In this document: one piece after another, positions 55,873 to 62,981 of the stretch
Layout of the letters: each line of letters begins with the position of its first letter
Numbering within the stretch: position 1 is the first letter of the stretch
From: Alphaproteobacteria bacterium
GTDB taxonomy: Bacteria; Pseudomonadota; Alphaproteobacteria; Rickettsiales; SXRF01
DNA: 64,000 nucleotides
NCBI GenBank assembly: GCA_033763575.1
Contig: JANRKF010000033.1
Span: forward strand, 6,278 to 70,277
Direction of reading: 5' to 3'
The notes under the pieces: model-generated
Seen by the model: only the letters and a program-made list of their open reading frames with translations
Told to the model about the DNA's origin: nothing
The model's database searches: none
Program-made: the position numbers and the translations under genes

Positions 55873-57165
55873 TCACGGGTTAGGCCGCGTGCCACCCGCC
55901 GGACCGCCAATTGGAGTCGTGCCGCCCCCGGCCGGCTGACCGGATTGACCCGCTTTCTTAAACCAATCGCCCAGCGGGCCCTGCATGCTCGCAAGATTGG
56001 TGCTGGCGCCCGCCAGGTCGCTTGCGATCAGGGTGACGATACTGTTGAAGCGCGACGCCAGGTCCGCCAGCATCACCAACACCAGAACGCCCACGATATC
56101 AATCGGGAAAATCGGCCCCTGCGTCGTCTGCGGCCCGTTGAACGACCACGACCCGCCATACGGCTGGCAGCCGCTGCCCTGACACAACGCAAAGCGCCAG
56201 TAATGCATGGCAAACGGCGAGCCGGTCATGCTGTTCGCCCACTGGGTCCAGCATACCGGCGTGAGCAGGATGTTGTTGATCGCGACATCGATCAACTGCA
56301 CGAAAAATGCCAGGAAGGTGAACAGCAAAATCGGCTGCAGCGTGGCGTTGACGATCTGGTTGAGCCAGCCGTCGAATAAATAACGCGTCCGCACGAACAG
56401 CAGGAACGACAGGAAAATAGGCGCAATGCCGAACAGCAACGCCTTTAAAATCAGCGACATCAGATACACCCACGCGGCGGTGAGGATCGCACGCATGAAC
56501 GTGCCAAGCCCCAGCGCCAATAACAGGCCGAAAATCGGGCCGTAGGGCGGGGTGAAGAACATCGCCATCATCGTCACCGCCATTTTCGCCGACACCGCCT
56601 TGGTGAGCGCCTGATCGACCACGTAGAAGGGCGGCGCATTGACCGGCACCGCCTGGTTCAGCACCGCCGCCGACACCTGGTTGATCCACGCATCCGTCCC
56701 GGCATTGAAGAATTTAACCACGGTAATATTGAAGAAATACCAGGCATCCGGCGAAAGCAGCAGCGCGATAATCCCGATCTTCACCATCCGCACGCTGAAA
56801 TCAAACAGCGTGATCTGCACCATGCCGAAGGTGAACATGATGCCGTAAAAAATAATGTAGAGCGTCGCCAATGCCGAAATCGCATTGAGGAAGCCGACAT
56901 CGCTGATGATCGCCGCGAACAGCGCCGCCGTGACCTGATTCAGGATGTTTTGTATCTCGACGATGATGGTGGAAATAAGCCCCTGCCCGGGCGGAGGCGA
57001 GGGAATGGCGAATTGCGGATCGCTGGTGCAGGTGCCGTGCGGCACGGTGGGCGGCTGGTTGGCGAACGCGCTCTCCGGTATCAGGAGGCACAACACGGCG
57101 ATCGCCAGTATCGCCGGCAGGATCGCCTTCGCATGTGACCGTAAAGAATGGGCTGTGTGTTTCAT
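55873..57165 (-). CDS. virB6: VirB6/TrbL family type IV secretion protein, paralog 3
   Basis: ATG 57165 overlaps the upstream stop (ATGA). It has a signal/TM N-terminus (MKHTAHSLRSHAKAILPAILAIAVLCL), multiple TM helices, and a G/P/Q-rich tail. Confidence 0.8.
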   Translation of the reverse strand: MKHTAHSLRSHAKAILPAILAIAVLCLLIPESAFANQPPTVPHGTCTSDPQFAIPSPPPGQGLISTIIVEIQNILNQVTAALFAAIISDVGFLNAISALATLYIIFYGIMFTFGMVQITLFDFSVRMVKIGIIALLLSPDAWYFFNITVVKFFNAGTDAWINQVSAAVLNQAVPVNAPPFYVVDQALTKAVSAKMAVTMMAMFFTPPYGPIFGLLLALGLGTFMRAILTAAWVYLMSLILKALLFGIAPIFLSFLLFVRTRYLFDGWLNQIVNATLQPILLFTFLAFFVQLIDVAINNILLTPVCWTQWANSMTGSPFAMHYWRFALCQGSGCQPYGGSWSFNGPQTTQGPIFPIDIVGVLVLVMLADLASRFNSIVTLIASDLAGASTNLASMQGPLGDWFKKAGQSGQPAGGGTTPIGGPAGGTRPNP

Positions 57166-58568
57166 GGCGTTTGCCTTCCTCCAACCAATTGTGATATTTG
57201 TGCAGTAAGACCTGAAAGGCTGCGCGCCGCCTGCCCCGCTTGACCGCTTTGCACCTGGCTTTGCAATTGGCCGGTGGCCTGCTGCAGCTTGCCGATCACC
57301 GCCGAATTCGCGCCGAACGCGATCTGGCTCGATACCCCGGCGATACTCGATGCCACCTGCGGCAGCAACTGCAGCATCGATTTCATCAGCGACGAAAATA
57401 TCCATAGCGTGATGAAGGCAAAGCTGAGTGCTTGAGTGAAGAAAACGTCGTTACTACCGAAACTGACCCGCGCCATCCGCCCGATGACGGCATCGAACGA
57501 GTTCTTGGCCATCGGGTTCACAAAGGATTGCACCGGCGGCGCGATGTTGCGCGCAACGCATGGCACATCGGTGCTGGTCGAAAGGTTTTTCATCATCACA
57601 TTGGTATTGGGATCCGACGGTATCATCCATGAGGAAAGCGACGAGTTGTTGCGCCAGTAGGCCCTGAAATCATTGCCGCCCAACACATCGAAAATATTCT
57701 GGATCAATATATCGAAAATACCCACGAACATCCAGACGAAAGCAAAAATCAGCGTCGGCGTCAGGATGGCGGCGACAATAATATCCGCCCATTTTTTGAA
57801 ATAGCGCTCGGTGTAGAAGAACAGCGCCAGCGGTATCATCACCGGCATCAGGGTGAGCAGGAAGCCGATGGTGAGGAACGCCATCAGGTAGGTGTAAATC
57901 AGCGACAGGATGAAAATGAGCAGGTTCATCATGCCGATGATGCCGAAGAAAAACAGCGACACGCCCACATTCGACGAAAATACCGATGCGCCGACAATCC
58001 CCATCAGCCCGTTCATCATCGCAATGCTGGGACCGGCCCCCACCAGATTGCCAAGGAAGGCGTCGATGCGCTGCCACGGCGACACCCCGCCCACCACCAG
58101 CCGCAACATGTCGGCGAGAATGGCAAACACCCAGCCCACAATATCGGGCAGTATGTTCATAAACGCCGCAACAAACGCAAGCTTGATGAACAGGGTGGAG
58201 CTGCGCTTGAGCAGCTCGCGCTCGCCCATCGCAATGCGTATGCCGTAAAAGGTGATGACCAGCGTGGAAAGCACCGCCGTCACCCAGCCGAATTCATCGG
58301 AGATGATATACATCATGTTGATCACCGCATCCTTGATCGTGCCCTCAATGCACGCCACCAGTTTCGAGGTGAACTCATAGGACTGGTATTGGATGCCGGT
58401 ATAGTTGGACGCGCAGCTGCCAAGCTCGAACCGCCCCGTATTCATGCCGGAGCGCGCTACCGAAGCGGTGGGGCAGCCCTGCGCAGCGAACGCCTGGACG
58501 GGCGCCATCACCGAAAGCAACAGCGACGCAAGCGCTACGAATAAGAATGGAAATGGCTTCCTGCTCAT
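57162..58568 (-). CDS. virB6: VirB6/TrbL family type IV secretion protein, paralog 2
   Basis: 468-aa polytopic protein. Its ATG overlaps the upstream stop (ATGA). It has a Q/G-rich C-terminal tail. Confidence 0.8.
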   Translation of the reverse strand: MSRKPFPFLFVALASLLLSVMAPVQAFAAQGCPTASVARSGMNTGRFELGSCASNYTGIQYQSYEFTSKLVACIEGTIKDAVINMMYIISDEFGWVTAVLSTLVITFYGIRIAMGERELLKRSSTLFIKLAFVAAFMNILPDIVGWVFAILADMLRLVVGGVSPWQRIDAFLGNLVGAGPSIAMMNGLMGIVGASVFSSNVGVSLFFFGIIGMMNLLIFILSLIYTYLMAFLTIGFLLTLMPVMIPLALFFYTERYFKKWADIIVAAILTPTLIFAFVWMFVGIFDILIQNIFDVLGGNDFRAYWRNNSSLSSWMIPSDPNTNVMMKNLSTSTDVPCVARNIAPPVQSFVNPMAKNSFDAVIGRMARVSFGSNDVFFTQALSFAFITLWIFSSLMKSMLQLLPQVASSIAGVSSQIAFGANSAVIGKLQQATGQLQSQVQSGQAGQAARSLSGLTAQISQLVGGRQTP

Positions 58569-62678: not shown

Positions 62679-62684
62679 GACGGC

Positions 62685-62981
62685 CTAAAATGGATCATAG
62701 GAGTTGGTATAGCCGTGGAAGCCACGGTTCAGGCAACGAAACCCCTTGTTGACTTTGAGGATGAACAGCTCGATCGCCCGCGGCTCCTTGAGGCAGATCA
62801 GGTAGCCGACCAGATGCACCGTCGGCGTGACGATCAGGATAATTTTGAAGCTCTGCAGGTTGATGAAGGTGATCATGCTGACGATGGCGTTGATGACGAA
62901 ATACATGTAGCTCACGCCGAGGATCATCGTCGGTCGCGTAAGGCCCTGAAATAACGGGTCGGATTGTAATCTTCCTGCCAT
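62685..62981 (-). CDS. virB3: type IV secretion protein VirB3
   Basis: 98 aa. Contains DPLFQGLTRPTMILGV and two TM helices. It lies 6 nt upstream of virB4. Confidence 0.9.
   Translation of the reverse strand: MAGRLQSDPLFQGLTRPTMILGVSYMYFVINAIVSMITFINLQSFKIILIVTPTVHLVGYLICLKEPRAIELFILKVNKGFRCLNRGFHGYTNSYDPF

What the first reader, a model, noticed from the sequence alone, without database searches (positions are those of the whole stretch)
55873..62981. Rickettsiales-vir-homolog-like T4SS module: virB3-virB4 followed by three tandem virB6 paralogs
- The gene order is virB3, virB4, then three translationally coupled VirB6/TrbL paralogs of 559, 468 and 430 aa. Two of the junctions are ATGA overlaps.
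- No virB2, virB5, virB7, virB10, virB11 or virD4 lies adjacent.
- This matches the scattered rvh architecture known from Rickettsiales, where virB6 is amplified and the system is split into islands. That arrangement is typical of host-associated lineages.
- Here it occurs in a high-GC genome that also encodes a chemoreceptor, so the host organism may be an unusual carrier.
- Each VirB6 paralog has a different low-complexity G/Q/P-rich C-terminal tail.
Basis: partly seen in the sequence, partly recalled or inferred. Interest (0 to 1): 0.6.

Follow-up and report, generated by a model that had tools for sequence, protein, structure and literature searches.

The report
Known Rickettsiales-type secretion gene island
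This is one gene island (virB3, virB4, three virB6 copies) of the scattered "rvh" type IV secretion system that marks Rickettsia and its relatives.

Summary
On the minus strand lie virB3 (62685-62981), virB4 (60258-62678) and three TrbL/VirB6 paralogs (58565-60241, 57162-58568, 55873-57165). All pass Pfam cut-offs, and two junctions are ATGA overlaps.

The rvh reading also holds. The 1.94-Mb genome shows every published rvh hallmark:
- two VirB4, two VirB8 and two VirB9 copies;
- four VirB6 copies;
- no VirB5 and no relaxase found;
- single VirB3, VirB10, VirB11 and VirD4 copies.

The other parts lie in the same window (virB8-II/virB9-I, 7507-9050) and on another contig (virB2 x2, virB4-II, virB6, virB8, virB9, virB10, virB11, virD4).

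The window's VirB4 falls in the RvhB4-I clade with Rickettsiaceae genomes. The best of 72,556 plasmids is only 41.7% identical. It also groups with named Mitibacteraceae genomes. 199 of 201 genomes sampled from the organism's order carry it.

High-GC, chemotactic carriers were described by Schön 2022 and Lehman 2024, so the carrier is not unusual. This scan has already met the same islet in other genomes (e1-2259527, e1-2429838).

Side results:
- The partner paralog VirB4-II has lost its ATPase motifs here, independently of Rickettsia-like lineages.
- A Pho-box-like promoter element precedes three rvh loci.

Low novelty.

The parts
63050..63066 (-). Pho-box-like direct repeat TGCCACAAAACTGCAAC in the -35 position of the virB3 promoter
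   Evidence: Read. It is one of only 2 matches to TKYCAYNNNNNTKYMAY in the 64-kb window. Near-identical boxes stand upstream of virB3 in about 14 relatives, and before virB2a on C22 and virB2c on C11. That a regulator binds it is inferred.
63034..63039 (-). -10 hexamer TATGAT, 10 nt downstream of the box
   Evidence: Sequence reading. The spacing is the same as at the C22 virB2a promoter (box, 10 nt, TAGTAT). Not tested experimentally.
62685..62981 (-). virB3 (rvhB3), 98 aa; the only VirB3 in the genome
   Evidence: PF05101 88 bits. NF010474 121 bits. Single genome-wide hit.
60258..62678 (-). virB4 (RvhB4-I type), 806 aa, intact Walker A (GPTGSGKT) and Walker B (VLDEAW)
   Evidence: PF03135 185 bits. 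NF010473 1232 bits. Lies in the starred RvhB4-I clade. Motifs read.
58565..60241 (-). virB6 paralog 1 (B6a), 558 aa, with a Cys-rich soluble insert of about 190 aa before the last TM segment
   Evidence: PF04610 50.4 bits. Hydropathy. Positional orthologs in relatives.
57162..58568 (-). virB6 paralog 2 (B6b), 468 aa, ATGA overlap with B6a
   Evidence: PF04610 39.7 bits. Junction read. Same old lineage as B6a in the VirB6 tree.
55873..57165 (-). virB6 paralog 3 (B6c), 430 aa, ATGA overlap with B6b
   Evidence: PF04610 66.6 bits. Junction read. Separate old VirB6 lineage 'c'.
8268..9050 (-). Second rvh islet in the window: divergent virB8 paralog (RvhB8-II type). The likely start is the ATG at 8990.
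   Evidence: PF04335 72.5 bits, against 152.5 for the C22 copy. KPVT stands where the C22 copy has NPLG. It scores better than the C22 copy against R. typhi RvhB8-II, PDB 4O3V (28.4 against 20.9 bits).
7507..8271 (-). virB9 paralog (RvhB9-I type), 254 aa, ATGA-coupled to the virB8 paralog
   Evidence: PF03524 213.7 bits, against 154.5 for the C22 copy. TIGR02781 249.8 bits, over its cut-off.
52854..55853 (-). YhdP/AsmA-like gene 19 nt after virB6c: a neighbour, not a conserved part of the system
   Evidence: PF13116 117.9 bits. Found downstream of the virB6 array in only 1 of 80 related loci (L020). A weak hairpin spans the virB6c stop.
63141..63157 (+). Second Pho-box-like repeat (TGTCATTATATTGTAAT) pointing at the divergent orphan gene that starts at 63227
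   Evidence: The orphan (468 aa, runs off the window) has no Pfam family and no homolog in the 80 related loci.

Best explanation
The region is 'islet A' of a Rickettsiales vir homolog (rvh) P-type type IV secretion system, inherited vertically in the chromosome of a basal, environmental member of the Rickettsiales.

It encodes:
- the small inner-membrane protein VirB3;
- the only catalytically competent VirB4 ATPase of the genome (RvhB4-I type);
- three divergent polytopic VirB6 channel subunits, translated as a coupled unit.

It cannot form a machine alone. The other parts are:
- a virB8-II/virB9-I pair 47 kb away in the same window;
- a chromosomal operon on another contig: virB2 x2, virB4-II (ATPase motifs lost), a fourth virB6, virB8-I, virB9-II, virB10, virB11, virD4;
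- a third virB2 elsewhere.

Shown: gene content, motif states, phylogeny and order-wide conservation.

Inferred:
- The products assemble into one envelope-spanning translocon that exports protein substrates recruited by VirD4. It is not a conjugation apparatus, because no relaxase was found.
- The scattered loci are co-transcribed from promoters that share a Pho-box-like direct repeat.

The target of secretion (other bacteria, or protists) is unknown.
For: - Domains over curated cut-offs.
- Genome inventory: VirB3 x1, VirB4 x2, VirB6 x4, VirB8 x2, VirB9 x2, VirB10 x1, VirB11 x1, VirD4 x1, VirB2 x3. No VirB5 (PF07996) and no relaxase (PF03432, PF08751) found. This is the hallmark list given in PMC11077975 and the islet scheme of PMC2653234 and PMC4676284.
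- IQ-TREE VirB4 tree. The window protein lies in a 100/99 clade of RvhB4-I proteins that includes Rickettsiaceae-labelled MAGs. Five plasmid VirB4s fall outside. The contig-C22 copy lies with the RvhB4-II proteins.
- The best hit among 72,556 plasmids is 41.7% identical, against 54-92% for Rickettsiales MAGs.
- virB3-virB4-virB6 x3-5 is found in essentially all 80 related loci long enough to show it.
- 199 of 201 genomes sampled from the organism's order (39 or more families) have VirB4, mostly two copies.
- VirB4-I has Walker A and B; the genome's VirB4-II has neither.
- The Pho-box-like element is shared by three rvh promoters and conserved in relatives.
Against:
- The assembly is 92% complete, so absences (VirB5, relaxase) are not proof. 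Only two relaxase families were searched, and VirB1/VirB7 were not sought.
- The virB8-II/virB9-I islet shows no recognisable Pho-like box, so co-regulation of all loci is not shown.
- VirB6 proteins here are short (430-558 aa), unlike the 670-1150-aa RvhB6 of Rickettsia.
- The I/II labels for VirB8 and VirB9 rest on synteny, scores and one motif, not on trees.
Confidence: 0.88

Rival explanations
1. Two machines rather than one. The contig-C22 operon (virB2 to virD4) is a self-sufficient T4SS. The window islets (virB3-virB4-virB6 x3 and virB8-virB9) are a partial second system, or supply alternative subunits that swap in under other conditions.
For: - The C22 operon lacks only VirB3 and is conserved as a block in seven relatives.
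- In other lineages VirB4-II keeps intact Walker motifs, so two active sets may be the ancestral state.
- PMC4676284 discusses, and does not favour, stage-specific assemblies.
Against: - In this genome VirB4-II has neither Walker A nor Walker B.
- VirB3, VirB10, VirB11 and VirD4 are single-copy.
- Neither set can therefore be complete and energised alone.
- Three loci share the same promoter element.
Confidence: 0.07
2. A remnant or partial duplicate of an ordinary conjugative MPF-T system (plasmid or ICE) integrated in the chromosome.
For: VirB3/B4/B6 are shared with conjugative systems. Pfam cannot tell the two apart.
Against: - No relaxase found in the genome.
- No integrase or tRNA next to the islet; the only tRNA is at 33556.
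- GC equals that of the genome; the flanks are housekeeping genes.
- Plasmid VirB4s are at most 41.7% identical and fall outside the clade.
- The islet is conserved in position and order across a whole bacterial order.
Confidence: 0.02
3. A decaying relic without function in a free-living lineage.
For: The organism lacks the ATP/ADP translocase of host-dependent Rickettsiales. One VirB4 paralog has lost its active site.
Against: - All ORFs are intact and translationally coupled.
- VirB4-I is 69-92% identical across more than 120 protein clusters.
- The gene order is kept in about 70 genomes.
- The promoter element is conserved.
Confidence: 0.03

Closest known systems
rvh T4SS of basal environmental Rickettsiales (Mitibacteraceae/Athabascaceae; Schön et al. 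2022, PMC9352585; Lehman et al. 2024, PMC11077975)
   Same: - Chromosomal rvh with duplicated VirB4/B8/B9, multicopy VirB6 and no VirB5.
- Genomes of about 2 Mb with GC up to 58%, carrying chemotaxis genes and no ATP/ADP translocase.
- The window's VirB4-I groups with UBA6149, UBA998, UBA6189 and CoA8_M105.1.
- CoA8N_M8 (VirB4 81% identical, same clade) is listed in Lehman Table S1.
   Different: This genome itself is not one of the published ones. By the genome tool's family codes its family (f1) is distinct: f1 members match at 71% identity or more, and the next matches, at 69% and below, come from other families. The named Mitibacteraceae MAGs match at 65-69%. Details such as the Pho-like promoter box and the way VirB4-II lost its P-loop are not mentioned in the text or supplements I could search.
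Rickettsia rvh islet A (virB3, virB4a/RvhB4-I, virB6a-e; Gillespie et al. 2009, PMC2653234)
   Same: - Same gene order and coupling.
- VirB4 of the conserved, catalytically intact type.
- A separate RvhB9-I/RvhB8-II pair.
- B8-I, B9-II, B10, B11 and D4 kept together.
   Different: - Three VirB6 of 430-558 aa instead of five of 674-1154 aa.
- A fourth VirB6 and VirB4-II sit inside the large operon instead of VirB4-II standing alone.
- VirB9-II is full length.
- Three virB2 copies.
- About 56% GC.
Archetypal P-type T4SS (Agrobacterium VirB/D4, R388 Trw, pKM101)
   Same: Homologous VirB2-B4, B6 and B8-B11 and D4 parts. The PDB VirB8/TrwG chains are the best structural relatives of the canonical VirB8 copy.
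   Different: One contiguous operon with single-copy genes, VirB5 present, and usually a relaxase and plasmid context. VirB4 is at most about 42% identical.
Bacteria-killing X-T4SS of Xanthomonadales (Souza 2015, cited in PMC9352585)
   Same: A chromosomal P-type T4SS without a relaxase. Schön et al. propose this role for the rvh of free-living basal Rickettsiales.
   Different: No test was made here for its defining effectors (the XVIPCD domain) or its VirB7 N0 domain. Its subunits are not duplicated.

Membership tests
rvh (Rickettsiales vir homolog) T4SS | VirB4 duplicated into a conserved RvhB4-I and a divergent RvhB4-II | tested here: met
   Two VirB4 genes, 28% identical. They fall in the I and II groups of the tree. 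All 16 related genomes checked also have both.
rvh (Rickettsiales vir homolog) T4SS | RvhB4-II lacks the ATPase active-site motifs | tested here: met
   Walker A is replaced by DFNSFNDG, and Walker B DE by QH. This is not universal in the order: 27 of 140 B4-II-clade rows (14 MAG copies plus protein-cluster representatives) keep both motifs.
rvh (Rickettsiales vir homolog) T4SS | VirB8 duplicated; the II copy has lost the NPXG dimerisation motif | tested here: met
   Two VirB8 genes. The C22 copy has NPLG and the window copy KPVT at the aligned site. The window copy scores better against PDB 4O3V, RvhB8-II.
rvh (Rickettsiales vir homolog) T4SS | VirB9 duplicated; the II copy has an aberrant or missing C-terminal domain | tested here: inconclusive
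   Two VirB9 genes, 33% identical. Both match the whole CagX profile. The copy next to virB10 only scores lower (154 against 214 bits), so divergence is seen but not truncation.
rvh (Rickettsiales vir homolog) T4SS | Multicopy VirB6 | tested here: met
   Four TrbL-domain genes over the cut-off: three in the window and one on C22.
rvh (Rickettsiales vir homolog) T4SS | No VirB5 analog | tested here: met
   No PF07996 match at E<=1 in the 92%-complete assembly. The limits are the sensitivity of one profile and the incomplete assembly.
rvh (Rickettsiales vir homolog) T4SS | Genes scattered in islets; islet A = virB3-virB4-I-virB6 array | tested here: met
   Four loci: window 55873-62981, window 7507-9050, C22:12.8-23.4 kb and C11:12.1 kb. 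The same islet A occurs in about 70 related loci.
rvh (Rickettsiales vir homolog) T4SS | Vertical inheritance within the order Rickettsiales | tested here: met
   199 of 201 genomes of the order have it. The branching of the 16 genomes is broadly parallel in the B4-I and B4-II parts of the tree. The closest records are labelled Rickettsiales MAGs.
rvh (Rickettsiales vir homolog) T4SS | Greatly enlarged RvhB6 proteins (670-1150 aa in Rickettsia) | tested here: not met
   430-558 aa here. Enlarged copies appear only in the Rickettsiaceae-like relatives. This is a trait of derived lineages, not of the family as defined in PMC11077975.
rvh (Rickettsiales vir homolog) T4SS | Translocates protein effectors via RvhD4 | not testable with these tools
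   VirD4 is present (486 bits). There are no experimental data.
Conjugative MPF-T system (plasmid/ICE) | Relaxase and coupling protein with the mating-pair genes, on a mobile element | tested here: not met
   No PF03432 or PF08751 match in the genome. VirD4 lies on another contig among housekeeping genes. There are no mobile-element signs at the islet. Other relaxase families were not searched.
Conjugative MPF-T system (plasmid/ICE) | VirB4 nested among plasmid/ICE VirB4 proteins | tested here: not met
   Plasmid VirB4s form their own clade outside RvhB4-I. The best plasmid identity is 41.7%.
Bacteria-killing X-T4SS | XVIPCD-type effectors with immunity proteins; VirB7 with an N0 domain | not tested
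   No profile for these was at hand. VirB7 was not located.

The most novel reading that the evidence does not exclude
The window's VirB4 is the only working VirB4 ATPase of this organism, because its partner paralog VirB4-II lost the P-loop in this lineage independently of Rickettsia.

Across the order, VirB4-II appears to have lost its ATPase motifs many times. About 18 state changes are counted on a rough tree, and 27 of 140 B4-II-clade rows are still intact. That would mean repeated selection for a catalytically dead VirB4 partner rather than one ancestral accident.

Together with the Pho-box-type promoter shared by rvh loci and family-less orphan genes, this would give a handle on how the machine is built, and on its cargo and its trigger, in free-living basal Rickettsiales.
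Probability: 0.35. Interest if true: 0.45.

Novelty: new member of a known kind. Interest (0 to 1): 0.2.

Why it matters
As a locus it adds one more example to a system already catalogued in more than 150 Rickettsiales assemblies, so by itself it matters little.

Its use is comparative. This lineage keeps a less fragmented layout, with VirB4-II and a fourth VirB6 still inside the virB2-to-virD4 operon, short VirB6 proteins and a full-length VirB9-II. It can therefore help order the steps by which the odd Rickettsia machine arose.

It also shows that the 'dead' VirB4-II is a recurrent outcome, not an ancestral state. The shared promoter box could point to co-regulated cargo in organisms whose use of the system (killing bacteria, or dealing with protists) is still open.

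Tried and rejected
- The 83-aa ORF upstream of virB3 (62983-63234) as a VirB2: it has no Pfam hit and no hydrophobic pilin-like sequence, and it overlaps the promoter region. Rejected.
- The YhdP/AsmA-like gene as part of the system: it follows the virB6 array in only 1 of 80 relatives. In most, a convergent gene follows. Rejected as a conserved part.
- The conjugative-remnant reading: rejected.
- A Pho-like box before the virB8-II/virB9-I pair: none seen. The divergent gap to ccmD is only about 35-60 nt.
- An IQ-TREE 'quick' tree of 71 VirB6 proteins did not finish. FastTree was used instead, so the deep VirB6 branches are rough.
- The first ATP/ADP translocase search had no positive control. 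It was repeated with Rickettsiaceae-like MAGs as controls.
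Full report
**1. What is in the sequence**

Five tightly packed genes lie on the minus strand of window 55873-62981:
- virB3, 62685-62981, 98 aa
- virB4, 60258-62678, 806 aa
- B6a, 58565-60241, 558 aa
- B6b, 57162-58568, 468 aa
- B6c, 55873-57165, 430 aa

All pass Pfam's curated cut-offs: VirB3 88 bits, CagE_TrbE_VirB 185 bits, and TrbL 50.4, 39.7 and 66.6 bits. VirB3 and VirB4 also pass the NCBIfam equivalogs NF010474 and NF010473.

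The two ATGA overlaps (58565-58568, 57162-57165) and the Shine-Dalgarno-like GGAGG sites before them were read directly.

The three VirB6 proteins share 26-30% identity. They are polytopic, and their short C-terminal tails are Gly/Gln/Pro/Ser/Ala-rich and differ between paralogs.

The neighbours carry no vir domain.

**2. The rest of the machine**

The window lies in a 1.94-Mb, 35-contig, 92%-complete assembly of about 56% GC. Whole-genome profile searches give this inventory:

| Component | Copies | Where |
|---|---|---|
| VirB3 | 1 | window |
| VirB4 | 2 | window; C22 |
| VirB6 | 4 | window x3; C22 |
| VirB8 | 2 | window; C22 |
| VirB9 | 2 | window; C22 |
| VirB10 | 1 | C22 |
| VirB11 | 1 | C22 |
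| VirD4 | 1 | C22 |
| VirB2 | 3 | C22 x2; C11 |
| VirB5 | none found | |
| Relaxase (PF03432, PF08751) | none found | |

The second VirB8 and VirB9 lie in the same window, 47 kb from the finding, as an ATGA-coupled pair at 7507-9050.

Contig C22 holds virB2-virB2-virB4-virB6-virB8-virB9-virB10-virB11-virD4 among housekeeping genes.

**3. Comparison with the published definition of rvh**

- Lehman et al. 2024 list the rvh hallmarks as duplication of RvhB8, RvhB9 and RvhB4, multicopy RvhB6 and no VirB5 (PMC11077975).
- Gillespie et al. 2009 define islet A as virB3-virB4a-virB6a-e. They note that VirB4b has mutated NTP-binding residues (PMC2653234).
- Gillespie et al. 2015 describe rvhB9-I and rvhB8-II as one operon. 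rvhB8-I-rvhB9-II-rvhB10-rvhB11-rvhD4 form the large islet, and RvhB8-II has lost the NPXG motif (PMC4676284).

The genome fits this scheme:
- The window's VirB4 has GPTGSGKT and VLDEAW. The C22 VirB4 has DFNSFNDG and VLQHAF at the same columns.
- The C22 VirB8 is canonical: 152 bits, NPLG, 113 bits to Bartonella VirB8 structures.
- The window VirB8 is divergent: 72 bits, and KPVT aligned to NPLG. It scores better than the C22 copy against R. typhi RvhB8-II, PDB 4O3V.
- The window VirB9, next to that divergent VirB8, is the better-conserved copy (214 against 154 bits). This matches the RvhB9-I/RvhB8-II pairing.

Only the truncation of VirB9-II and the giant size of the Rickettsia RvhB6 proteins are not seen. 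Both are traits of derived lineages.

**4. Phylogeny and distribution**

*Close relatives.* A scan of one genome per species returned 80 loci, all from uncultured MAGs. Most are labelled Rickettsiales, Alphaproteobacteria or Pseudomonadota. VirB4 identity falls smoothly from 86% to 54%, and Rickettsiaceae- and Rickettsia-labelled MAGs sit at the far end. In the protein database the best 120 clusters are 69-92% identical.

*Plasmids.* The best of 72,556 plasmids reaches 41.7%.

*VirB4 tree.* An IQ-TREE tree held the two VirB4 of this genome, 30 copies from 16 related genomes and five plasmid VirB4s.
- The window protein lies in a 100/99-supported RvhB4-I clade.
- The plasmids form a separate 100/100 clade.
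- The C22 copy lies with the long-branched RvhB4-II proteins, beyond a 100/100 branch.
- The branching of the genomes is broadly parallel in the I and II parts of the tree, which points to vertical inheritance.

*Placement among named genomes.* A FastTree of all 80 loci puts the window in a clade with UBA6149, UBA998, UBA1002, UBA6189 and CoA8_M105.1. Schön et al. 2022 name UBA6149 and UBA6189 as Mitibacteraceae, with 41.9% and 58.2% GC (supplement). Lehman's Table S1 lists UBA6149 and UBA6189 as 'MITI'. It also lists CoA8N_M8 and CoA8_M105.1, with no family label visible in the passages fetched. CoA8N_M8's VirB4 is 81% identical to the window's and falls in the window's own clade.

*Order-wide survey.* In a sample of 201 genomes from the organism's order (39 or more families, 127 genera), 199 have VirB4, mostly in two copies. 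All 11 other genomes of its family do.

*Gene order.* virB3-virB4-virB6 x3-5 is present in essentially every related locus long enough to show it. The nearer relatives have exactly three positionally orthologous VirB6 genes.

*VirB6 tree.* A rough VirB6 tree shows three old lineages:
- 'a/b': islet positions 1-2;
- 'c': position 3 onward;
- 'd': the copy beside VirB4-II.

Further tandem duplications are lineage-specific.

**5. The carrier**

The genome, two close relatives and UBA6149 have no ATP/ADP translocase. Three Rickettsiaceae-like MAGs searched in the same call have four or five.

A genome of about 2 Mb with higher GC, chemotaxis genes, no translocase and rvh present is exactly the profile Schön et al. 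describe for Mitibacteraceae and Athabascaceae (PMC9352585). So the carrier is not unusual by present knowledge.

This scan had already reached the same conclusion on other genomes (e1-2259527, e1-2429838). I re-derived it here from the data.

**6. How it most likely works**

Shown:
- The window supplies the only VirB3 and the only VirB4 with an intact P-loop.
- VirB10, VirB11, VirD4 and the pilins lie elsewhere.

Inferred from established knowledge of P-type T4SS:
- The loci must cooperate to build one translocon.
- VirB3/VirB4-I form the inner-membrane ATPase complex.
- The four VirB6 paralogs contribute the inner-membrane channel and stalk base. There is no VirB5 tip.
- VirD4 recruits protein substrates.
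- No relaxase was found, so DNA conjugation is unlikely.

Whether VirB4-II, VirB8-II and VirB9-II sit in the same complex is unknown, here as in Rickettsia.

**7. Regulation** (lead from e1-5253294 and e1-2829590; partly tested)

- Upstream of virB3 stands TGCCACAAAACTGCAAC (63066-63050), followed after 10 nt by TATGAT.
- The C22 virB2a promoter has CTGTCAAAAAATTGTCAC, then 10 nt, then TAGTAT.
- The C11 virB2c gene has TTGTCACAAAAGCTTCAT upstream.
- A pattern drawn from these three has 8 matches in the genome, where my own rough composition estimate expects about 0.06.
- Seven genes checked behind the other boxes (strict and looser pattern matches) have no Pfam family.
- Near-identical boxes precede virB3 in about 14 relatives, down to 61% VirB4 identity.
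- A looser pattern has only two matches in the 64-kb window. Both are in the 245-bp gap between virB3 and a divergent orphan gene, one facing each gene.

I did not test whether a PhoB-type regulator exists or binds.

**8. Side result: VirB4-II**

In this genome's clade the Walker A site of VirB4-II is replaced by D[FY]NSFxD, and Walker B is lost. In Rickettsia-like MAGs the site is degenerate in a different way (GHDDSGKA, VSGGN). In five of the 16 genomes VirB4-II keeps GPxGxGKT and DEAW.

I searched VirB4-II against 1.84 billion representative proteins and placed the 136 hits of 650 aa or more on a FastTree.
- The tree gives a 140-row RvhB4-II clade: 14 MAG copies plus 126 representatives.
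- 27 rows keep both motifs and 74 keep neither.
- At least 18 changes of state are needed.
- The D[FY]NSF form marks one 20-row clade that holds this genome.

The tree is rough, with many unresolved forks. Even so, loss in this lineage is clearly independent of that in Rickettsia-like lineages. I found no mention of this in the papers and supplements searched.

**9. Other layout differences**

The block virB2-virB4-II-virB6d-virB8-virB9-virB10-virB11-virD4 is kept in seven nearer relatives. In the Rickettsia-like MAGs it is broken up, and VirB4-II stands alone. This lineage therefore shows a less fragmented state.

The YhdP/AsmA-like gene 19 nt downstream of virB6c follows the array only in the closest relative. 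I do not count it as part of the system.

**10. Verdict**

The kind of system, and its presence in this kind of organism, are already published. This is a new member of a known kind and of low interest. There are two small leads: recurrent inactivation of VirB4-II, and a shared Pho-like promoter box.

Limits:
- The MAG is 92% complete.
- Only two relaxase families were searched, and VirB1/VirB7 were not sought.
- The family placement rests on VirB4, not on a marker-gene tree.

Noticed in passing
G000 contig C22:13590-16001 (not in the window); relatives L100-L112, L128: The VirB4-II paralog has lost Walker A (DFNSFNDG) and Walker B (QH for DE) in this genome's clade. It is intact in five of 16 related genomes and degenerate in a different way in Rickettsia-like MAGs. 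Of 140 rows in the B4-II clade (14 MAG copies plus protein-cluster representatives), 27 keep both motifs, with at least 18 state changes on a rough tree. ATPase-site loss therefore looks recurrent, not ancestral.
   Followed up: partly
window 63050-63066 (-), 63141-63157 (+); C22:12684; C11:11924: A Pho-box-like direct repeat (TGYCAC-AAAA-N-YTKCAY) stands 10 nt upstream of a -10 hexamer at the virB3 and C22 virB2a promoters. A similar box, with no clear -10 hexamer, precedes virB2c on C11. A variant faces the divergent orphan gene. Seven genes checked behind other boxes in the genome (strict and looser matches) have no Pfam family. The virB3 box is conserved in about 14 relatives.
   Followed up: partly
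window 7507-9050 (-): A second rvh islet lies in the same window: a divergent virB8 (NPXG replaced by KPVT) ATGA-coupled to a well-conserved virB9. It is wedged between gpsA and the divergent ccmD-ccmE-ccmF genes. The promoter gap is only about 35-60 nt, and no Pho-like box is seen.
   Followed up: yes
window 52854-55853 (-): A 999-aa YhdP/AsmA-like gene starts 19 nt after the third virB6, with only a weak hairpin between them. The adjacency is shared only with the closest relative (L020), so it is probably a genus-level accident of gene order.
   Followed up: partly
window 63227-64000 (+), continuing on contig C33: A 468-aa orphan with hydrophobic segments is transcribed divergently from virB3. 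It has no Pfam family, no homolog in 80 related loci, and its own Pho-like box. It is a candidate co-regulated (secreted?) protein.
   Followed up: partly
L135-L148 (regions around virB4-II in 14 related genomes): The block virB2-virB4-II-virB6-virB8-virB9-virB10-virB11-virD4 is intact in seven nearer relatives. It is progressively broken up in more distant, Rickettsia-like MAGs, where virB4-II stands alone. Together they form a graded series of operon fragmentation.
   Followed up: partly
L081, L056, L072, L083, L099 (record titles): Several public MAGs that carry this islet bear doubtful labels (Hyphomicrobiales, Azospirillaceae, Azospirillum sp., 'Rickettsia typhi' from lake metagenomes). 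Their VirB4 places them among environmental Rickettsiales.
   Followed up: no
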